Shown one piece after another: positions 2,116 to 53,509 of a stretch of DNA of 64,000 nt. How positions within the stretch are numbered: position 1 is the stretch's first letter; every line of letters starts with the position of its first letter. The DNA is from an uncultured virus (IMG/VR IMGVR_UViG_3300044825_003036) (Duplodnaviria; Heunggongvirae; Uroviricota; Caudoviricetes): IMG/VR virus record IMGVR_UViG_3300044825_003036, one strand, 5' to 3'. The notes under the pieces were generated by a model that did not search any database, was not told the origin of the DNA, and saw nothing but the letters and a program-made list of their open reading frames with translations. The position numbers were made by a program, and so were the translations under genes.

Positions 2116-2369
2116 GCGTGAGATCCAAGAGGTTCACATTGGCGGTTTTGGTCACAAGTGAGTCCGTTCACCGTGGGCTAGCTGTGAAAGGCGAAGCGCT
2201 TCTGCGATATGGCGACGGCGGCGCCCGTCGATTTACCGTCGAGAGAACGTTCGACGTTCTGGAGCGGATAGACGTGCCTTCTGTTGAGGCGATGGTGGTG
2301 GGGGAATTGGCCACAATGGCTTGTGAAGAAGCGCCAGTAGTGGAGCCAGAACCGGCGGTGAAAGCATGA
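2112..2369 (+). CDS. Hypothetical protein
   Basis: GTGA/ATGA overlaps on both sides. Confidence 0.5.
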   Translation: MSVRSKRFTLAVLVTSESVHRGLAVKGEALLRYGDGGARRFTVERTFDVLERIDVPSVEAMVVGELATMACEEAPVVEPEPAVKA

Positions 2370-2596
2370 GCGCCAAGAAGTTCACCCTGGAAGTCTCGAT
2401 TGAGGTCAACGAAACCAAGGGCGACGTCCGGATCAAGGGGACCGCTGTTGGGGTCTACGAAAACGGGATGCGAGGCAAGTTCACTAGTGGGGACCGCGTC
2501 GATGCTGCGGCGATTCGTGGGGGGGCTTCGGTCTCTGCCGTGGCGGAGCAGGTAGCGGCTAACCTAGCCAAGCTGGCCTATCGGAGCTTGCCGTGA
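2366..2596 (+). CDS. Hypothetical protein, weakly paralogous to 2112..2369 (KxFTLxV start)
   Basis: ATGA overlap; similar N-terminus. Confidence 0.55.
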   Translation: MSAKKFTLEVSIEVNETKGDVRIKGTAVGVYENGMRGKFTSGDRVDAAAIRGGASVSAVAEQVAANLAKLAYRSLP

Positions 2597-44096: not shown

Positions 44097-45641
44097 ATGG
44101 AAAGCACCCTACGAATCGAATACGAGCCGATCGAGAGCGCCAAGCTGGCGGTCGGCAACCCCAAATCTCACGACCTGCCCCTGATCAAAGCCTCTATCCA
44201 GCGATGGGGCTTTGCCGAGCTGGCGGTCGTCAACGAAAAGACCGGACGCCTCGTGGCCGGGCACGGCCGGCGGGAGGCGCTCGTGGAGCTTCAGCGCAGT
44301 GGCGCGCCGCTGCCCGGCAACATTCGGCAGGACGAGCAGGGACGCTGGCTGTGGCCCGTCGTTCGAGGGGTGAGCTTCCGCAACCAGGCGGAGGCCGACG
44401 GCTACTTAGTGGCCGTCAACCGGTCGGTGATGGCTGGCGGCTGGGACGCCGATCGTTTGGCGAAGCTGCTCGACGGTGTCCGCGCCAAAACCGATCTGGT
44501 TGGCACAGGCTTCACGTCGAAGGAGCTCGATCGGATGCTGAGCAAGGCGAAGGTCTCGGCAGTCGAACAGCAGGGCGAGCCGGATGCGGGGGAGCTGCCG
44601 ACCGAGCCGATTTCCAAGGCCGGCGATCTTTGGCTGCTCGGGGACCATCGGCTGGTGTGTGGGGACTGCCGCGACTCGACGGTGATGGCGCGCCTCATGG
44701 ACGGCGACTTGGCGGACGAGCTGTTCGCCGATCCGCCGTACGGCATGGGCAAGGAAAAGGATGGGATCGTGGGCGACAACCAGTACGGCCCGAAGCTTGA
44801 CCAGTTCCAAAGCGAGTGGTGGCGTGCTGTGCGTCCGCACCTCAAGTCGACGGCGGCGGCGTACATCTGGGGCAATGCGCCGGACTTGTGGCGCTGGTGG
44901 TTTGGCTGGCTGTCGCTGAGCGAGACGCTCACGTTCCGCAACGAGATTGTTTGGTACAAGGGGGATTACGCTAACGGGCAACGAACCGCGGTGGCCCTGC
45001 AGTACCCGGTTCTGTCCGAGCGCGCGCTTTTTTTCGTTCTGGGGAACCAAGCTGCTGGAGCGCGTAACCAGGCCCGCTATTGGCAGGGGTGGGAACCGAT
45101 CCGTAGTTACTTGGCGGAGGAGGCCAAGGCGGGCGGGCTCAACGCGGGCAGGGTCAAAGAGCTCACGGGTGCGGGGATGTGGCAACACTGGTTTTCCAAG
45201 AGCCAGTGGCTATTCCTGCCTGAGGACGCCTACCAAGCGCTTCGGGCCGCAACTGGACGTTTCGAGAGGTCCTATGCGGCGCTTAGTGCCCAATATGAGG
45301 CGCTCCGGTTTGAGTTCGAAAAGCTGCAGACGGCGGAGCGCGCCTACCACGACAACACCCACGAGAAGATGGGCGACGTGTGGGAGTTCCCGCGGCTCGT
45401 GGGCGCCGAGCGGCATGGGCACGCGACGCCGAAACCCGTGGCGCTCGCCAAGCGCGCGCTGCTCACGTCGTGCCCGCCTGGCGGCGTCGCGGTGAGCCCT
45501 TTCGGCGGGACGGGCCCCGAGCTGTTGGCGGCGGAGCAAACGGGGCGTAGGGCTCGCCTGGTGGAGCTCCAACCGGCTTACGTGGACGTCGTGATCGAGC
45601 GGTGGCAGCGATTGACTGGAGGGAAAGCGAAGCGGGGCTGA
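44097..45641 (+). CDS. ParB-N domain fused to a beta-class N6/N4 DNA methyltransferase
   Basis: NPKSH...SIQRWGF...VAGHGR; GDLWLLGDHRLVCGD; DPPY; HATPKPV; SPFGGTG. Confidence 0.92.
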   Translation: MESTLRIEYEPIESAKLAVGNPKSHDLPLIKASIQRWGFAELAVVNEKTGRLVAGHGRREALVELQRSGAPLPGNIRQDEQGRWLWPVVRGVSFRNQAEADGYLVAVNRSVMAGGWDADRLAKLLDGVRAKTDLVGTGFTSKELDRMLSKAKVSAVEQQGEPDAGELPTEPISKAGDLWLLGDHRLVCGDCRDSTVMARLMDGDLADELFADPPYGMGKEKDGIVGDNQYGPKLDQFQSEWWRAVRPHLKSTAAAYIWGNAPDLWRWWFGWLSLSETLTFRNEIVWYKGDYANGQRTAVALQYPVLSERALFFVLGNQAAGARNQARYWQGWEPIRSYLAEEAKAGGLNAGRVKELTGAGMWQHWFSKSQWLFLPEDAYQALRAATGRFERSYAALSAQYEALRFEFEKLQTAERAYHDNTHEKMGDVWEFPRLVGAERHGHATPKPVALAKRALLTSCPPGGVAVSPFGGTGPELLAAEQTGRRARLVELQPAYVDVVIERWQRLTGGKAKRG

Positions 45642-45647
45642 GACCGC

Positions 45648-45760
45648 TTGCGCGCCGCTCCGGTCCTGATAGTCTCGACGGGTAGCTACGGCATGGCTAC
45701 GCCTCGTGTGTTGAGTGGAGCTCCCCCGTCTGGTAACCCCAGGCGGGGGTTTTCTTTTTG
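45648..45760 (+). ncRNA. Candidate small RNA of about 80 nt with its own promoter and terminator
   Basis: TTGCGC-16 bp-TAGTCT (extended TG); hairpin GTAGCTA/TGGCTAC; terminator CCCCCGTCTGG/CCAGGCGGGGG + TTTTCTTTTT. Confidence 0.55.
45723..45760 (+). terminator. Intrinsic terminator
   Basis: GC stem followed by TTTTCTTTTT. Confidence 0.85.
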
Positions 45761-45794
45761 GGGGTGACGAAACGTGCCGGGCTCTTGTTGGACA

Positions 45795-46273
45795 GATCCC
45801 CCCCATTCTTCCCTGGTAGTGACTAGGGAAGGTGTTGGATCTTGGGGACCAGGGGATCCGGGGTCAGTCCTGCTACGCTCTCCGAACCTGCGAGACCAGG
45901 GGTTCTGTGGTGCGCTCTTGGGGACCTATGTCGCTAGCCTGAGGCGGCAGTTACCCCGCCTCGGATACCGAGTGCCTACCGAGGGGGGGTTGTGCGCGTG
46001 GGGCCGTTCGAGCCCACGAGCGATCGGCTGCCTGTTCGAGGCGCGAGAGAGCGCCCCTTGCCAACATGCGGCTGGGTACTGACTAGGGTTGCTGACCATT
46101 TCGGCTCACGCCGCACACCGGTCCCGCGGGTGCAATGGGGCGCCATCAGCGAAAGCGCTTGGCCCGAAACCGCTTGGCGGCTGCAGGCGAACAGGGTAGA
46201 CCTGTGTCCGGGACTGGACTGATACACCGCCCAACCCTACCTCGGACGTAATGCCCCTGGGGTAGGGTTTTTT
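45795..46273 (+). ncRNA. Candidate large structured ncRNA
   Basis: Nested long-range helices and many hairpins, no credible ORF, 3' terminator. Confidence 0.5.
46233..46273 (+). terminator. Intrinsic terminator
   Basis: AACCCTACCTC...GGGGTAGGGTT followed by TTTT. Confidence 0.75.
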
Positions 46274-46408
46274 GATCCAATTTGGGGAGCTGCCGGCTGT
46301 CCCGTTCTGGGGCTGTGGACAAGTCAAAAAGTCCTAGCGTTCGGCTCTTGCTTCTGTCAGAAGCCCCCTTGCCAGCAAAGCCGCCTGAGGGGTGGGGCTG
46401 GCCCCTGA

Positions 46409-46482
46409 TGCGGTTTAGAGCAGCTCGGTAGCTCGCTAGGCTCATAACCTGGAGGTCGTTGGTTCAAATCCAACAGCCGCAA
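46409..46482 (+). tRNA. tRNA-Met (CAT), initiator-type; CCA not encoded
   Basis: Cloverleaf: TGCGGTT/AGCCGCA acceptor, GAGC/GCTC D-stem (A11:U24), CTCATAA loop, GTTGG-TTCAAAT-CCAAC T arm. Confidence 0.93.
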
Positions 46483-46488
46483 CTGAAA

Positions 46489-46693
46489 CGTCCAGAGTCC
46501 CTGCTTTGACTTCTCCCCCGCCGGGAACACCGATGGGAAGGGGAGCAAGATGGTGCGGGATGATGCAGGATCCTGTTAAACGCAGGGAATTGACCCTGAG
46601 TCCGGCGAGTATGGGCGGCCAGCCTTGAGCCGCACCGCGATGACCCGGGCGATTTGTGCGCCCGCCAGCGGGAAGCTGGTGGGACTCTGGACG
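46489..46693 (+). ncRNA. Candidate 205-nt multibranch RNA immediately 3' of the tRNA
   Basis: Perfect 13-bp closing helix CGTCCAGAGTCCC/GGGACTCTGGACG enclosing several stems. Confidence 0.5.
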
Positions 46694-46739
46694 GTTCGCC
46701 CAAGGGCCTGGGGCAGGTGGCACAGAAAAAACCTGCCCA

Positions 46740-46786
46740 CCAAAACTTTTCCTTGCCGATTTATTCTGGCTAAGGGAAGTTTTGGG
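46740..46786 (+). promoter_or_regulatory. Early promoter bracketed by inverted-repeat operator-like boxes
   Basis: AAAACTTTTCC-TTGCCG-17 bp-GAAGTT within GGGAAGTTTTGG; the same architecture occurs at about 50019-50064. Confidence 0.6.
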
Positions 46787-46821
46787 CATGCCGCGGTTGG
46801 CGGCAACGAAAGGACAAGATC

Positions 46822-47022
46822 ATGGACGCAGTATTCAGCAAGATCGGCACGACTCGTGCGGGCAAGCTCACTCACTGGATCAAGGGTGAGGTGCGCGGCC
46901 ACCAAGCCCCAGCTTGTGGCCAGAATCGTCGGGCTTGGGGTGCTGGGGACATGAGGACCCTGGCAGCGGAGACCCGCCCAACCTGCGCTCACTGTCGCAA
47001 GATTCAGGCGGCGAAGGCATGA
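46822..47022 (+). CDS. Small Cys/His protein
   Basis: Hairpin-SD leader; H...ACG...TCAHC. Confidence 0.65.
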   Translation: MDAVFSKIGTTRAGKLTHWIKGEVRGHQAPACGQNRRAWGAGDMRTLAAETRPTCAHCRKIQAAKA

Positions 47023-47651
47023 GCGACGCGACAGCAGCAGCCCCGCTGTTCGCTGTCGTCTCGCTTGCGATGTTGGCGTGCCTGGTGGTGGCCTGGTGGC
47101 TCGAAAGGCCCCGGTCATGACCAGGCTGCAGCAGCAAACGAACCGACTGGCGGCGCTGAATGACTTGGTGGAGCTGCGCAAGAGCGCGCGGCAGTTGGCG
47201 GCGGAGCGCAGCGCGGAGGAGATCCGGCAGTTGCTCCGCGAGTGGCGACGGAGACAGCGGGATGCTCGCGTTGGTGCGTAGAATTCTTGGGCGGTGCCTG
47301 CGGTGCAGTCAAAAGCTCGGAGAACTAGCGCCGAGGCATCATGCCTACTGCCAGCGGTGCTGGCTTGGCTACGAGTGGCCGCGCCACTGCTATGAACGCA
47401 TTCTGAGGGCTGACAAGGAAAGGGAAAGGGGTGGGGATCATGGGCACAACGGCAAAGATCAGGCATAGACGGGCGCGAGCCCGACGGCTCACGGCTCAGC
47501 GGTGGTTCACCGAAAAGGAGCTGGTTGAGTCTGGGCTATACCGCGAGATCCGAGTGATCTCGGGCGATGAGCTCAGGCAACGGTTTTTTTTGGATGCGCG
47601 ATCAGCTGAGCGCGTCAGGGCGAAATTGGCGAAGTTGAAAGCGGAGGTGGT

Positions 47652-48312: not shown

Positions 48313-49290
48313 ATGACGACGACGAAAGAACAGGTGGGCGCGGTGTTGGCTTCGGGCGGCACCCAAACGATTGGAGCTTTGGTGTTCTGGTCGCTGGCTT
48401 CGGTGAGAGTGAAGCGAGACGAGTTCCGCGAGCGGCTGACCTCCCTCGGACTGGACAGTGCCATGGGCAAGGACCCGTCCCCCCGCAGCGCGCTGAGCAA
48501 GGCCGTTGCGGCGGCCTTCACTGGGCGCAAAGGCGTGATGGCGCGGCGTTTGGCGAACGGCAACGTCGGGATCGTGCTGGAGCGAATTACGGCCGGGCAC
48601 GCCAAGTATCGGCACGTCGCGACGGTTTCGGCACATTCCGGGGCTTTTCAAACAGACGCTGAGGTCGAACCGTTGCCAGCAACCAGCTCCGGCCCCGTCG
48701 TGTCCTATGAAGGGGAGACTGAGGGAGTTCCCGCGCGTGAAGCGCTCACAGCTGTGGCCCCGTCGCTCTTGGCTGAGCTGGGCGCGGCGTACGAGACCGC
48801 CAACAGCTACCTGCTCACCAACGACCTGAGTGAGGTGTTGATTTCGGCAGTCAACGGAAGCCCGCACCGTGGGCTTCTGGCGGGGCTCAGCCTGCGCGAG
48901 CGGACCGGCGGGCTCTACTTCATTGCTGGGCCCTACGTGGAGCGGATGCAGCAGCTCCAGCACCTGATCCAGGACGTGGCACCGTCGTGTGTCGTGTCGG
49001 TGATGACCATCACTGGATCCAAAGAGAACCTTGGCGAGGCGGCTCGCGCGGCTAAGCTGACGTTTGCGGCGCAGCTCGACGAGCTGAAGACCGAGCTGGT
49101 GGACTTCAAGGCGGGGCTGCAGATGAAGGGCAAGGGCGCGTCCGAGTATTCGATCGAGACCCGGATCGAGCGGTACAAGGACTTGGCCGCGCGAGTGGCG
49201 GTGTTCAAAGACTTGCTTGGGGTCGATGACCTGGAGCGTCAGATCGAGGCGGCCAAGACGGAGATGGTCAAAGAGCTGGAGGGCCTGTGA
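48313..49290 (+). CDS. Conserved phage/MGE protein (DUF3150/DUF6744-like)
   Basis: GALVFWSL N-terminus, GGLYFI motif, C-terminal coiled coil; near the AAA/VWA genes. Confidence 0.55.
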   Translation: MTTTKEQVGAVLASGGTQTIGALVFWSLASVRVKRDEFRERLTSLGLDSAMGKDPSPRSALSKAVAAAFTGRKGVMARRLANGNVGIVLERITAGHAKYRHVATVSAHSGAFQTDAEVEPLPATSSGPVVSYEGETEGVPAREALTAVAPSLLAELGAAYETANSYLLTNDLSEVLISAVNGSPHRGLLAGLSLRERTGGLYFIAGPYVERMQQLQHLIQDVAPSCVVSVMTITGSKENLGEAARAAKLTFAAQLDELKTELVDFKAGLQMKGKGASEYSIETRIERYKDLAARVAVFKDLLGVDDLERQIEAAKTEMVKELEGL

Positions 49291-49706
49291 CGCCACGGCA
49301 GCAGCTGGTTTGGGCTCGCCGGTGGCTCCAGGTTCATAAGTTTTGGCTGTTGGTGTTTTCCTGCATTCATCAGCCACGTTGCCTGCTCCTGCGAGTTGCT
49401 GCAGTGCTTGACCGTCATGGGCACAAGGCTCTCGACCGAGCCGGAACCGCGAGAGCCAAGGCGCAGTTTCTGCTCGATGAGATCGCGAAGAACCCAGAAC
49501 AGCAGGCCTTTTGGGCTGCAGAGAAGGATCGAACGTGAACGACGACCGGGAAGTGTTTTGGACTCGGATGGTGGTTGCCGCGCTGTCGAATCCCGCGGTG
49601 ACGGACGGGCCAGCGGCGCACGTGGCGGAACGAGCTGCCGATCTGGCGGATTGTGCGCTAGTGGAGTTCGATGCCCGTTTTCGCAGGGACAGCAGCTCGG
49701 ACCAAG

Positions 49707-50051
49707 GTGATCCTGAGGAGGCACAAGCCGATCTACCAGATCAAGAACTTCCGTGAGAAGTTCCTCTGGCGGCTCGCTGAGCTTGGGCTGGACCAGGTGG
49801 ACGTCGCTCAGCGAATGGGCGTGATCCATCGGCGGGTGAAAGCGATCCTCCATGCAAGGCGGATCGAGGAGGCTACTCTGGCGCGGGTGAGCGCGGCGCT
49901 GGAGTGGCCGATCGAGCGGTGGCAGCGCCGGCTACGGGTGCCTAAGTCGCCAGCCAAGACGGCGCTTCGGCACCTCATGGCGCACGCCGAGCAACAAGCA
50001 AAAAAACTGGAGCAGCCGAAAACTTTCCGCTTGCCCCGCTCCGGCGAGTAA
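49707..50051 (+). CDS. XRE-like HTH protein
   Basis: LAELGLDQVDVAQRMGV...TLARVSAALE. Confidence 0.65.
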   Translation: MILRRHKPIYQIKNFREKFLWRLAELGLDQVDVAQRMGVIHRRVKAILHARRIEEATLARVSAALEWPIERWQRRLRVPKSPAKTALRHLMAHAEQQAKKLEQPKTFRLPRSGE

Positions 50052-50064
50052 GGGAAGTTTTGGG
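50019..50064 (+). promoter_or_regulatory. Second copy of the early promoter/operator
   Basis: AAAACTTTCCGC-TTGCCC-17 bp-GAAGTT within TAAGGGAAGTTTTGGG. Confidence 0.6.
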
Positions 50065-50100
50065 GGTCGCGGTTTGGCGACAACGAAAGGACAAGCGGAA

Positions 50101-50316
50101 ATGGCAGCTGAAAAGGCACAGGTTGTTGTGGGTGGGTTCGTTCAGGCTCACGTCATGCTACATGCGGACGCGAACGTTCGAACGATGTTCCCCTTGCTCC
50201 GTCGCAAGGGCTGCCTGGACTCCCAGATCTGGGACTCGATCCGTGAGCTCCGCGCTCGCGGGCTGAACTACGACGCGGTCACTGGGGCTTTGCAGTTCGT
50301 CAAGGTGGCTGGGTAA
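50101..50316 (+). CDS. Small hypothetical protein
   Basis: ATG after the hairpin-AACGAAAGGACAA leader. Confidence 0.6.
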   Translation: MAAEKAQVVVGGFVQAHVMLHADANVRTMFPLLRRKGCLDSQIWDSIRELRARGLNYDAVTGALQFVKVAG

Positions 50317-50498
50317 AGAAGGGGCCGGGGGGCTATGAGCGAGGACGAGCGAGACACGATTCGCTGCAGTCCCGAGGAGCCGACGATCCCTGCGCAAGCG
50401 CCAAGCTGCGCGGCGGAGCCGGAGGTTCCACGGGACTCAGAGTGGGCAGGTTTTTCAACTGAAATGGCCGCAATTTTGGCCGAGATACTGGAGGCAGA

Positions 50499-51632
50499 GT
50501 GCAAGATTTGTTCGTGAACTTGGGGAAGTCATTGGGTGCTACGTTTCGTGAACGTGACGAAGTGATCAATGGGCTGATGTGTGCGGCGCTGGCGCAGGAG
50601 CACGTGCTTCTGCTCGGGCCACCTGGTACGGCCAAGAGCGCGCTGGCGCGAGCGTTTGCGGAGTCGGTGGGCGGCCACCATTTCGAGTGGCTGCTCAGCA
50701 AGTTCACCGCGCCGGAGGAGCTGTTTGGGCCGATCTCGTTGCAGGGGCTCAAGGCAGATCGCTACCGTCGAGTGACGACCGGCAAGCTGCCCGAGGCGGA
50801 AACGGTGTTCCTGGACGAGATCTTCAAGGGCGGTTCGGCGATCCTGAATACGCTCCTGGCCGCGATCAACGAACGCGTGTTCCACAACGACGGCCAGGTG
50901 CAAAAGCTGCCGCTCCGAATGGTGATCGGCGCGTCCAACGAGCTACCCGAGGGCCCCGAGCTCGGCGCACTCTACGACCGGTTCTTGTTGCGCTACTGGG
51001 TGGGTTACCTGCAGGGCCCGACCCAGTTTATTTCGATGATGCGTTCGTCGGAGCAGCTGTTCTCTCGGGTCATTTCGACCGAGCAATGGGACACGGCGCG
51101 GGCAGAGGTCGCTAAGCTTCCGGTCGATCCGGACTTGTACCAGAGCTTTTTCAAGCTCCGCACCGAGGCGCAGAAGGTCGGTCTAGCGCTCTCGGACCGA
51201 CGTTGGATGCGGATGATTCGCCTAGTCAAGGCCAGCGCTTGGCTTGCTGGGGACAAGGTCGCCGACCTGGAGCATTTCGACGTGTTGAAGGCGGCGCTGT
51301 GGAGCGACCCAGGCGAGCGCGACGCAGCCAACAAGCTCGTGGAAGACACGGTCGGCGGCGTGCTGACGCTGGCGGCGTCGGTGAGCCAGACGATCGAGCG
51401 GCAGGTGCAGAATGCTCAGCTGGACTTGGCTATTCCGGCGCGTGATGCTGAGTGGCAGCGGAAGCTGATCACAGCGCAGCAAGAAACGTCGCGCGGCGTC
51501 GCGCGGCTCAAAGAGCTGCAGACGCAGGCGGCAACCAAGAGTCAGAAGGCCAAGCTGGCGGCGCTGGTCGAGAAGGCCGAGCAGACCGTGGCCCCGGTGA
51601 AAGCCACCCTCAAGGCATCGCTGGAGATCTGA
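50499..51632 (+). CDS. MoxR-family AAA+ ATPase (RavA-like)
   Basis: GPPGTAKS, PEELFGP, FLDEIFK, ILNTLL, GASNELP, ALYDRF, SDRRW. Confidence 0.92.
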   Translation: MQDLFVNLGKSLGATFRERDEVINGLMCAALAQEHVLLLGPPGTAKSALARAFAESVGGHHFEWLLSKFTAPEELFGPISLQGLKADRYRRVTTGKLPEAETVFLDEIFKGGSAILNTLLAAINERVFHNDGQVQKLPLRMVIGASNELPEGPELGALYDRFLLRYWVGYLQGPTQFISMMRSSEQLFSRVISTEQWDTARAEVAKLPVDPDLYQSFFKLRTEAQKVGLALSDRRWMRMIRLVKASAWLAGDKVADLEHFDVLKAALWSDPGERDAANKLVEDTVGGVLTLAASVSQTIERQVQNAQLDLAIPARDAEWQRKLITAQQETSRGVARLKELQTQAATKSQKAKLAALVEKAEQTVAPVKATLKASLEI

Positions 51633-53509
51633 TGACGCATCTTATTACTGCGGGCGATGGTACCCAAATGACGGTTGCTGACGATGCCTTCGATCCAGAC
51701 CCTGGGAGCTCGATTCGCCGAGACCGCTTTACGGTTCGGTCCGCTCGACGGGTTGAGATCGGGGGCCGTTTCTCCGCTTGCCTCGATCTCAACGGCGGTG
51801 GCTTTTGGGCGGTGCAAAACACCTCCAATTCCAAAGGCGGTCCGCCGGTAGCGACTTTGGCTGGTAGTGTTTGGAGCAAGGAGCACTCGCGCCAACTCGC
51901 GGCCTTGGCTGACGGCGTTCCCTACGTCCCTGGGGTGCCCGCTTTTGGCAAGCCTAGCCAGAGTCCCGAGGATATCGCCAAGGCGATGCTGGAGGTGCTT
52001 GTGCAGAGTCGCGACGCCACAGTGGAGTCAACGGACATGGTTCGTTACTTGGTAGGCAACGAGGCAGCGGCAGGAGGGACTTTTCGCGAGGCGTGCCTGC
52101 GCCACGAGAACGAGACATGGCCAACGTTCGCGCGTGAGCTGTTCGCCTCGCTCTACGATGAGCCAAAGCCAACAGACAGCAGACCGCAAGGACCCGAGTG
52201 GATAGTTACGTTGCTGCAGGCCGCCAAGAACAGCGCAAGCTGGCCCGATCTGCAGCGCCTAGCCAAGGGCGAGCCGTGGTCGGCGGGAGTAGGCGCCGCG
52301 GAGATCGTCCAGGCCCTGGGCGAGACAATCAACGATCTGCTGGAGGAGCTCCCGAAAGAGGACCCACAACGACTGCAGGACCAGGCGGACCAGCTGGCGG
52401 AGATGGTCGGAGAGGACCACGAGGCGACGACGGAGGAGCAAGCAAAGGCGGACGCGGTGCAGGCAGCCCAGCTGAAGGTCGCGGAGGCGCTACAGACGCT
52501 CGATTTGGCCAGCGTCCCGGCGGCTGTGACGGCCGCTGTCCAAGCTCTGGCTGGCATCGATGGGCAGCTGCAGGCGCTTGGAGCGGGGAGCAACAACCCC
52601 AACCCGTTGCTTGCCAGCACCCCTCACGAGGTGCGCGAAGCCCTGGCAAAGAACCCCGTCCTGCGGGGGATTGCTGACGTCGCGGGGCGACTGCGCGTCG
52701 CGGCGCGCGCTGTAAAACGGAACAAGGTTCGGTACCTGCCCGAGCAGATCGTGGACGTGTCGTTGGGGGCAGAGCTCTCGCGGCTGCTTCCTGCTGAGCT
52801 GCTCCAGTTGGCTGAGCCTGACGTCGAGGACAACCTGTTGCGGAAGCTGTCGGAGTCCCAGGCGATGGTCTACGACCTGGAAGGGTCAGAGCCGGTCAAG
52901 ATGGGGCCGATTGTGGTCGCCATCGATTCGTCCTCCTCGATGGCTGGCCAGCGTTACGAGTGGGCAATGGGCGTGGCGCTCGCGCTGGTTGAGCGAGCGG
53001 TGTCGGACAAGCGGCCTTTCCGGCTCTTCACGTTCGCAATGCGACCCAACACGGTCTACACCGTGGACAAGCCGCGGGACATTACCGTGCATCTGCTCCA
53101 GGAAATGCTGACGACATTCTCGGGCGGTGGGACCGACATTGGTCGAGCGGTGCGCCAAGCGGCGGAGCTCACTCGGGACAAGACGTGGACCAAGGCGGAC
53201 CTGGTGCTGATCTCCGACGGTGAAGACGGCGATTTCTCGCCCAGCTTGTACGAGCTTTCTGAGCAGGGCGTCTGCGCTTACGGGATCTCGATCGGATCGA
53301 CGTTCTCGGAGCCGGTCAAGTCGGCGATGAGTGGCGTAGCGGCGGTCTCGGACCTACAGATCCAAGATGGCAGCGCCAACGTGGACGTGGTGTTTGGGCT
53401 CGATGGGGTTCCCAGAACGCTCCCAACACCTGCAGTTGTGAGTAAAGTGGATTCACTTGCAGCGGAGACAGCGGCGGCTCGTAAGCGAGCGATGGACACT
53501 CCGTTTTGA
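51632..53509 (+). CDS. VWA-domain protein (ViaA-like), partner of the MoxR ATPase
   Basis: LLPAEL, GPIVVAIDSSSSM (MIDAS), GGGTD, DLVLISDG; TGATG overlap. Confidence 0.88.
   Translation: MTHLITAGDGTQMTVADDAFDPDPGSSIRRDRFTVRSARRVEIGGRFSACLDLNGGGFWAVQNTSNSKGGPPVATLAGSVWSKEHSRQLAALADGVPYVPGVPAFGKPSQSPEDIAKAMLEVLVQSRDATVESTDMVRYLVGNEAAAGGTFREACLRHENETWPTFARELFASLYDEPKPTDSRPQGPEWIVTLLQAAKNSASWPDLQRLAKGEPWSAGVGAAEIVQALGETINDLLEELPKEDPQRLQDQADQLAEMVGEDHEATTEEQAKADAVQAAQLKVAEALQTLDLASVPAAVTAAVQALAGIDGQLQALGAGSNNPNPLLASTPHEVREALAKNPVLRGIADVAGRLRVAARAVKRNKVRYLPEQIVDVSLGAELSRLLPAELLQLAEPDVEDNLLRKLSESQAMVYDLEGSEPVKMGPIVVAIDSSSSMAGQRYEWAMGVALALVERAVSDKRPFRLFTFAMRPNTVYTVDKPRDITVHLLQEMLTTFSGGGTDIGRAVRQAAELTRDKTWTKADLVLISDGEDGDFSPSLYELSEQGVCAYGISIGSTFSEPVKSAMSGVAAVSDLQIQDGSANVDVVFGLDGVPRTLPTPAVVSKVDSLAAETAAARKRAMDTPF

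What the first reader, a model, noticed from the sequence alone, without database searches (positions are those of the whole stretch)
46489..46693. Second candidate RNA: 205-nt multibranch domain closed by a perfect 13-bp helix 6 nt after the tRNA
Seen: CGTCCAGAGTCCC (46489-501) is the exact reverse complement of GGGACTCTGGACG (46681-93). Inside are a CTTCTCCC/GGGAAGGG stem, GGTGCGG/CCGCACC enclosing CAGGG-AATTGA-CCCTG, CGGGCG/CGCCCG and CCAGC/GCTGG. Inference: the RNA is co-transcribed with the tRNA and released by tRNA 3' processing. It might be a 6S-like or Y-like decoy or an unknown class. I do not recognise a known ribozyme core.
Basis: partly seen in the sequence, partly recalled or inferred. 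Interest (0 to 1): 0.7.

Follow-up and report, generated by a model that had tools for sequence, protein, structure and literature searches.

The report
Orphan folded RNA behind phage tRNA
A virus of bacteria carries, directly behind its one tRNA gene, a roughly 210-base non-coding stretch whose two ends pair into a long stem; it probably makes a stable folded RNA, but it matches no catalogued RNA family and no relative was found, so its inner shape and its job are unproven.

Summary
The closing helix is real. 46489-501 pairs perfectly with 46681-693, and three more pairs extend it to 46485/46697, 2 nt after a CCA-less initiator-type tRNA-Met. A 13-bp repeat is ordinary across the whole 64 kb (26 of 60 shuffles), but not this close to the tRNA end (0 of 4000; 46 of 4000 if G-U is allowed). 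The interior is weaker than claimed: alone it folds no better than shuffles on + (51 of 300), one named stem has a mismatch, and the GGTGCGG/CCGCACC helix is not in the best fold. There is no Rfam, HDV/theta, tRNA-like or coding match. No homologue turned up in related phage records, phage and plasmid collections or bacterial genomes, so there is no covariation test. The context helps: this late/early boundary is a variable non-coding cargo site in a 55-68 kb phage family. A neighbouring ~380-nt element has a diverged homologue, and two other relatives carry their own covarying element there. Best reading (0.42): a stable RNA released by tRNA 3' processing, acting in trans as a decoy. Strand and function are inferred.

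The parts
46409..46482 (+). tRNA-Met(CAT) with initiator-type features (A11-U24, GGCTCATAAC anticodon region), but with a paired U1-A72 and only two G-C pairs closing the anticodon stem; no encoded CCA
   Evidence: ARAGORN; Rfam RF00005, 63 bits; the initiator hallmarks are recalled knowledge read against the cloverleaf
46485..46501 (+). 5' arm of the closing helix P1 (perfect core 46489-46501)
   Evidence: pairing probability 0.96 on +, 1.0 on -
46505..46549 (+). P2: irregular ~45-nt arm, register uncertain; strain variant G46543A keeps pairing
   Evidence: variant from run X4, folded
46552..46636 (+). Middle domain: possible 7-bp helix 46552-58/46630-36 around an 85-nt stretch; competes with local hairpins and is not in the best fold
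   Evidence: 94 of 300 shuffles of 46550-46645 fold as well
46583..46598 (+). 5-bp hairpin with 6-nt loop; on the minus strand the loop is one base short of a tRNA T-loop (recalled consensus)
   Evidence: pairing probability 0.91 on +, 1.0 on -; T-loop pattern not met
46646..46679 (+). Two perfect hairpins (P4 46646-64, P5 46665-79) that abut each other and, over one base, the closing helix
46681..46697 (+). 3' arm of the closing helix P1 (perfect core 46681-46693)
46711..46820 (+). Downstream boundary: an 8-bp hairpin around an A-tract, then a putative early promoter/leader cassette repeated at ~50020-50095 and in relative L136; not part of the RNA domain
46393..46404 (.). Strain-variable spot just upstream of the tRNA: 12 bases here, 133 other bases in a contig of run X4
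   Evidence: table 5
45861..46237 (-). Separate ~380-nt structured element, divergent from the tRNA, with a diverged homologue in L138 in the opposite orientation relative to the genes
   Evidence: (z 6.5, 0 of 100 shuffles)

Best explanation
46485-46697 is a non-coding RNA domain of an uncatalogued class on the same transcript as the phage's only tRNA. SHOWN: the closing helix, its position, non-coding character, and no match to known families. INFERRED: the CCA-less pre-tRNA is cut after the discriminator by a host RNase Z-type enzyme, which frees the trailer with a 2-nt 5' overhang. The 16-pair stem joins both ends and protects it from exonucleases. The released RNA then works in trans as a stable binding partner or decoy for a host protein (most plausibly a nuclease or RNA-sensing defence factor, the pressure usually invoked for phage tRNAs), not as a ribozyme or mRNA. 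It is one of several exchangeable RNA cargos at this family's late/early boundary.
For: Helix position: 0 of 4000 shuffles. Whole-domain fold z -3.2 to -4.1 on +. Two perfect hairpins abut the closing helix. No coding signal: the one candidate ORF (55 aa, minus strand) scores below the 5th percentile of real genes, has no PHROG match and one repeat-type hit among 1.84 billion proteins. The only change seen inside the domain (G46543A, run X4) keeps pairing, a single event. The site carries structured non-coding cargo in relatives: the upstream element is homologous to L138, G013/G022 share an intergenic element with 8 of 274 predicted pairs changed on both sides, and a strain has 133 other bases beside the tRNA. 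Phage tRNA islands are known homes of structured RNAs of unknown function (PMC12286853, passages).
Against: No homologue, so no covariation. The interior is not more stable than shuffles on +. Coding regions of this genome reach equal or better local fold scores: the + domain has z -3.75 and is not in the top six of 108. In the unprocessed precursor, thermodynamic folding prefers pairing with the tRNA and gives P1 only 0.14. No sigma-70-type promoter was found upstream of the tRNA and no terminator after the domain. The decoy role has no direct evidence. 0 of 38 related records carry a tRNA and relative L141 has no non-coding block here, so the cassette is dispensable.
Confidence: 0.42

Rival explanations
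1. Chance inverted repeat in GC-rich spacer or decayed DNA between the tRNA and the early promoter; no functional RNA.
For: 26 of 60 whole-window shuffles hold such a repeat. The interior is unremarkable on +. No homologue was found. The 3' half has a borderline codon score in one frame.
Against: Position at the tRNA end (0 of 4000; 46 of 4000 with G-U); 37 of 5000 intergenic shuffles; hairpins abutting the helix; neighbouring cargo is conserved structured sequence.
Confidence: 0.2
2. Cis-acting trailer only. The stem folds out the trailer so that the tRNA 3' end is processed cleanly and tRNA-promoter read-through is decoupled from the early operon; the released piece is waste.
For: The helix begins 2 nt after the discriminator of a CCA-less tRNA. 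There is no terminator before the early cassette. Trailer and tRNA can mispair when P1 is absent.
Against: A short hairpin would suffice; 180 nt with extra perfect hairpins is more than such a role needs (inference).
Confidence: 0.18
3. The functional RNA is the minus strand, transcribed leftwards from the early-promoter region like the upstream element.
For: It is the best of 72 non-overlapping minus-strand local structures of 150 nt or more (z -5.7). With arms fixed only 6 of 300 shuffles fold as well. P1, P4, P5 have probability 0.98-1.0. The upstream element has G-U pairs and GNRA loops on the minus strand.
Against: The energies are alike (-102.5 on +, -100.8 on -), and the z gap partly reflects the G-rich + strand raising its shuffle background (inference). 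The transcript would run into antisense tRNA. No minus-strand promoter or terminator passed the scan.
Confidence: 0.12
4. A small non-autonomous DNA insertion (MITE-like) with 17-bp terminal inverted repeats that landed behind the tRNA.
For: Terminal inverted repeat; tRNA 3' ends are common insertion spots (established knowledge).
Against: No target-site duplication at either boundary. Single copy in the window. No transposase or integrase family among 75 genes. No copy in 401 and 151 bacterial genomes searched, though the host is unknown. No contig joint skipping the element in 4 runs.
Confidence: 0.05
5. A self-cleaving ribozyme that matures the tRNA 3' end, as theta ribozymes do.
For: It starts within a few bases of a CCA-less phage tRNA, the context of theta ribozymes (PMC10879173, passages).
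Against: No HDV-like double pseudoknot starts within 0-3 nt of the tRNA end. The one + strand descriptor hit lies 85 nt inside, and 6 of 20 shuffles also give hits. No hammerhead core motif. No Rfam ribozyme match.
Confidence: 0.03

Closest known systems
GOLLD and ROOL RNAs (PMC12286853, passages read)
   Same: Structured non-coding RNAs of unknown function in phages and prophages, often near tRNA islands; GOLLD env-38 lies downstream of a Met-tRNA.
   Different: GOLLD often exceeds 800 nt and both are defined by covariance models; this domain is 213 nt and has no match. It is not one long RNA with an embedded tRNA, because the upstream element is on the other strand and occurs in L138 without tRNA or trailer.
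Theta ribozymes, minimal HDV-like (PMC10879173, passages read)
   Same: Begin at the 3' end of a phage tRNA.
   Different: No HDV topology with a cleavage site at the tRNA end; about three times larger (size recalled); closed by an end-to-end helix.
Phage T4 stable RNAs C and D (species 1 and 2) of the tRNA cluster (recalled; search gave no paper on them)
   Same: Non-tRNA stable RNAs cut from a phage tRNA transcript, function unknown. T4 precursors with CCA-less tRNAs are described in PMC11143913 (passages).
   Different: No sequence match to annotated phages; this is an analogy of logic only.
6S RNA and bacterial Y RNA
   Same: Similar size for 6S; ends joined by a stem.
   Different: Branched rather than a rod with a central bubble; no Rfam match; no tRNA-like module at near-default ARAGORN thresholds; no Ro60/TROVE gene.

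Membership tests
Theta / HDV-like ribozyme | Cleavage site (start of P1) within about 5 nt of the tRNA 3' end, with nested double pseudoknot | tested here: not met
   Own descriptor found none starting 0-3 nt from the tRNA end, and its only + strand hit in 46483-46745 starts 85 nt in; feature from PMC10879173
Theta / HDV-like ribozyme | Self-cleavage in vitro | not testable with these tools
   needs bench assay
6S RNA | Match to the Rfam 6S models | tested here: not met
   no match at gathering score or at E<=10
6S RNA | Long rod with central bubble | tested here: not met
   multibranch after 16 pairs on both strands
Bacterial Y RNA | Ro60/Rsr (TROVE) gene nearby | tested here: not met
   0 of 75 predicted genes; the vWA protein pairs with a MoxR ATPase and has no TROVE hit
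Bacterial Y RNA | tRNA-like module with T-loop | tested here: not met
   T-loop pattern absent; ARAGORN finds nothing until thresholds that flood the region with noise
SRP RNA, RNase P RNA, tmRNA | Covariance-model match or hallmark motifs | tested here: not met
   the weak RNase P hit (E 6.7, 8 bits) lies outside, on the promoter cassette
GOLLD / ROOL | Covariance-model match and size | tested here: not met
Group I / group II intron | Conserved core (P7 elements; domain V) | tested here: not met
   no Rfam match; core patterns absent, though GTGCG occurs
Retron msr-msd | Terminal inverted repeats plus adjacent reverse transcriptase gene | tested here: not met
   inverted repeat present; no RT family among 75 genes
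MITE-like insertion | Target-site duplication and multiple copies | tested here: not met
   host unknown, so copy number in the true host is untested
Conserved structured ncRNA (any class) | Compensatory base changes among homologues | tested here: inconclusive
   no diverged homologue; one pairing-compatible change in one strain contig

The most novel reading that the evidence does not exclude
This widespread family of 55-68 kb contractile-tailed phages keeps, at its late/early boundary, an exchangeable cassette of uncatalogued structured RNAs: this 213-nt tRNA-released domain, the ~380-nt invertedly placed neighbour, and a ~410-nt element in G013/G022. The 213-nt RNA would be a new class of counter-defence decoy delivered together with an altered initiator tRNA.
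Probability: 0.15. Interest if true: 0.75.

Novelty: new variant of a known kind. Interest (0 to 1): 0.38.

Why it matters
Why phages carry non-tRNA stable RNAs in their tRNA transcripts is an old open question (T4's RNAs, GOLLD, ROOL). A compact 213-nt example with sharply predicted ends, next to a single tRNA, would be cheap to test by in vitro processing, probing and pull-down. The stronger lead is the locus: several different uncatalogued structured elements occupy one syntenic slot in one phage family, two of them with comparative support. Without homologues, this domain alone is an unverified orphan.

Tried and rejected
Homologue searches, all without a true hit.
- Annotated phages by blastn: the 20 listed of 445 records matched on the tRNA part; 26 records with short matches for the trailer. 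Plasmids: 7 short matches.
- IMG/VR pattern scans: hairpin 16-mer, 39 hits, none extending; junction plus hairpin, 14 hits, none extending; tRNA pattern, 0; upstream-element pattern, 1 hit inside a gene.
- Related virus records: DNA, 18 of 37 with short matches at E<=1, best E 0.005 inside coding DNA. One-sequence covariance model: 1 of 48 (11 bits, poor alignment), 0 of 50 (50 of the 76 further loci I had listed), and only self-matches among 83 sources.
- Bacterial genomes around a Deltaproteobacteria bin: 24 of 401 by DNA, 3 of 151 by model; the 23 matches re-found in the 24 loci fetched all lie in open frames of 116 codons or more.
- These searches have low power: the model rests on one sequence, many records are fragments, and the closest relatives (50-53% DUF6744 identity, 65-67 kb contigs) could not be read as DNA.

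Other leads.
- Expression: no RNA holder listed, which is not evidence either way.
- Likeness to the G013/G022 element: z about 1, rejected.
- Antisense targets in the phage genome: only chance-length matches.
- Alternative register (46498-504/46582-88 plus 46595-603/46682-90): 12 kcal/mol worse, not pursued as a switch.
- The TTTGACTT inverted repeat around the tRNA (46311-28/46505-22, 15 of 18): chance level by my estimate.
- Resemblances recalled from memory (FMN, lysine and cobalamin riboswitches, group II domain V, 16S helix 27): no Rfam support.
- Permuted-tmRNA calls appear only at the lowest ARAGORN threshold, amid 28 noise calls.
- Literature searches (listings only) showed no description of this RNA or phage group. 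The library lacks most subscription papers and I opened no supplements; motif tables in supplements of ncRNA surveys could hold it.

Full report
Setting. The window is nearly a whole phage genome; the DUF6744 protein's longest contig is 64,481 nt. It has terminase, portal, capsid, baseplate and amidase genes on the + strand, then a ParB-fused methyltransferase ending at 45641, a non-coding block 45642-46821, and an early region with DUF6744, MoxR ATPase, vWA protein, exonuclease, Sak4-like protein and an O-like initiator. The capsid protein has 551 relatives at E<=0.001, many on 60-68 kb contigs. The host is unknown; one relative sits in a bin titled Deltaproteobacteria. No genome is held for the window.

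The observation. The 13-bp helix is exact and is the only such repeat within 300 nt in the window. It extends to 46485/46697 with one mismatch, leaving 2 nt after the tRNA discriminator at 46482. The tRNA is a CCA-less tRNA-Met with initiator-type features (hallmarks recalled). Chance was tested at three levels. Whole-window shuffles contain such a repeat in 26 of 60 cases and intergenic shuffles in 37 of 5000. A Watson-Crick helix of 13 or more starting within 10 nt of the tRNA end arises in 0 of 4000 shuffles, or 46 of 4000 with G-U pairs. The helix is therefore notable for where it sits.

On +, 51 of 300 shuffles of 46502-46680 fold as well, and 48 of 300 with the arms fixed. The CTTCTCCC/GGGAAGGG stem has a mismatch and the predicted arm uses another register. 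The GGTGCGG/CCGCACC helix is 2.5 kcal/mol from the best fold. The CAGGG/CCCTG hairpin and the two 3' hairpins are well predicted on both strands. In a genome-wide local-fold scan the domain is the best of 72 long structures on the minus strand (z -5.7), but on + it scores -3.75 and coding regions reach -6.2. The strand cannot be read from folding; I favour + because of the tRNA.

What it is not. Rfam gives only the tRNA at gathering score and nothing relevant over the domain at E<=10. An HDV-type descriptor finds no core starting at the tRNA end, the defining position of theta ribozymes (PMC10879173, passages). Hallmark patterns of hammerhead, SRP, RNase P, tmRNA, T-loop and intron cores are absent (patterns recalled). 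None of 75 predicted genes matches a reverse transcriptase, TROVE, transposase or integrase family, and there is no target-site duplication. A 55-codon minus-strand ORF (46743-46579) scores between non-coding and real genes and has no credible relatives.

Relatives. No homologue was found: phage and plasmid collections, IMG/VR pattern scans, related virus records (18 of 37 short chance-level DNA matches; 1 of 48 and 0 of 50 with a one-sequence model), 83 sources, and 401 plus 151 bacterial genomes. 0 of 38 related records have a tRNA, and L141 goes from lysis genes straight to the early promoter. These searches are weak, because the closest relatives exist only as proteins here. Near-identical copies occur in contigs of two other studies: X4 over 46405-47200 with 2 differences and X5 over 46544-46761 with 1. 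The single change inside the domain, G46543A, keeps pairing on either strand. That is one event and no proof of selection.

Context. The slot behaves as a variable non-coding cargo site. The stretch 45861-46237 has a collinear homologue in L138 (z 6.5, 0 of 100 shuffles), in the opposite orientation relative to the genes, with matching helices of different sequence. Its G-U pairs and GNRA loops point to the window's minus strand (helices placed by hand, and the script picked the nearer of two possible partners for L138's closing helix). So it diverges from the tRNA and is not part of one GOLLD-like RNA. G013 and G022 carry a different element in the same slot, with 8 of 274 predicted pairs changed on both sides. 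A strain in X4 has 133 other bases just before the tRNA. Downstream, 46740-46820 is a promoter-like and leader cassette repeated at about 50020-50095 and in L136, which bounds the domain on the right.

Mechanism. Most likely (0.42), the tRNA and trailer are one transcript. A host RNase Z-type cut after 46482 frees a 213-nt RNA whose ends are sealed by the 16-pair stem, and it acts in trans as a stable decoy or binding partner. Only the anatomy is shown; processing, stability and the decoy role are inferred. The defence angle rests on analogy: phage tRNAs are proposed to counter host tRNA nucleases (PMC10264068, passages), and structured RNAs of unknown function cluster near phage tRNAs (PMC12286853, passages). 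Against it: no promoter or terminator passed the scan, and the unprocessed precursor is predicted to mispair with the tRNA, leaving P1 at 0.14. Rivals: chance (0.20), cis-acting trailer (0.18), minus-strand RNA (0.12), small insertion element (0.05), ribozyme (0.03).

Verdict. The closing helix is real and well placed, the interior is partly supported, and there is no family membership and no comparative test. It works, if at all, like the stable non-tRNA RNAs of phage tRNA transcripts, and belongs to none of the catalogued families. Paper searches (listings only) showed no description; supplements were not opened. Earlier scan notes on other genomes describe comparable orphans and tRNA trailers; I used them as analogies only. 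Interest 0.38. The neighbouring element and the cargo slot are the better-supported leads.

Noticed in passing
window 45861-46237 (-); L138 ~2183-2550 (+): About 380-nt structured element, no Rfam match, homologous between two phages and placed in opposite orientations relative to their genes. It shares a three-way junction with different stem sequences. Better comparative support than the finding itself.
   Followed up: partly
L133 3150-4050 (-) / L134 9150-10060 (+) (G013, G022): Three TTGAC-led promoter-like units at the late/early boundary, the last followed by a ~410-nt ORF-poor element; compensatory changes between the two phages; no Rfam match at E<=0.5.
   Followed up: partly
window 46393-46404: Replaced by 133 other bases in a contig of run X4, at the place where the -10 box would fall behind a TTGCC box at 46369; the letters could not be read.
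   Followed up: no
window 46409-46482: The only tRNA; initiator-like but with a U1-A72 pair and an A-U in place of the first of three anticodon-stem G-C pairs. Could alter formylation or nuclease sensitivity (inference). 0 of 38 related records have a tRNA.
   Followed up: partly
window 45648-45760: Promoter-like boxes (read by eye), about 80 nt, then a strong intrinsic terminator (45723-45759): a possible small RNA right after the methyltransferase gene.
   Followed up: no
window 46233-46275: 9-bp inverted repeat followed by a T-run on +, terminator-like, overlapping the 5' end of the minus-strand element.
   Followed up: no
window 46799, 48288, 50074, 55340, 1388, 2988, 12587, 53619, 60977: Repeated leader/ribosome-binding motif, mostly just before gene starts, up to 27 identical bases.
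   Followed up: no
window 46753 and 50031; L136 ~1148: Conserved early promoter-like cassette with an A-tract and a non-consensus -10 box; the second copy overlaps the end of the 49671-50051 gene.
   Followed up: partly
window 46423-46444 with 46597-46616; 46394-46403 with 46617-46626: The middle of the domain is complementary to the tRNA D/anticodon arm and to the strain-variable spot upstream; it could mask the tRNA in the precursor, or be chance.
   Followed up: no
window 48313-53509: DUF6744 + MoxR ATPase + vWA module opens the early region in most complete relatives (ATPase in 7 of 9 records at least 90% complete).
   Followed up: partly
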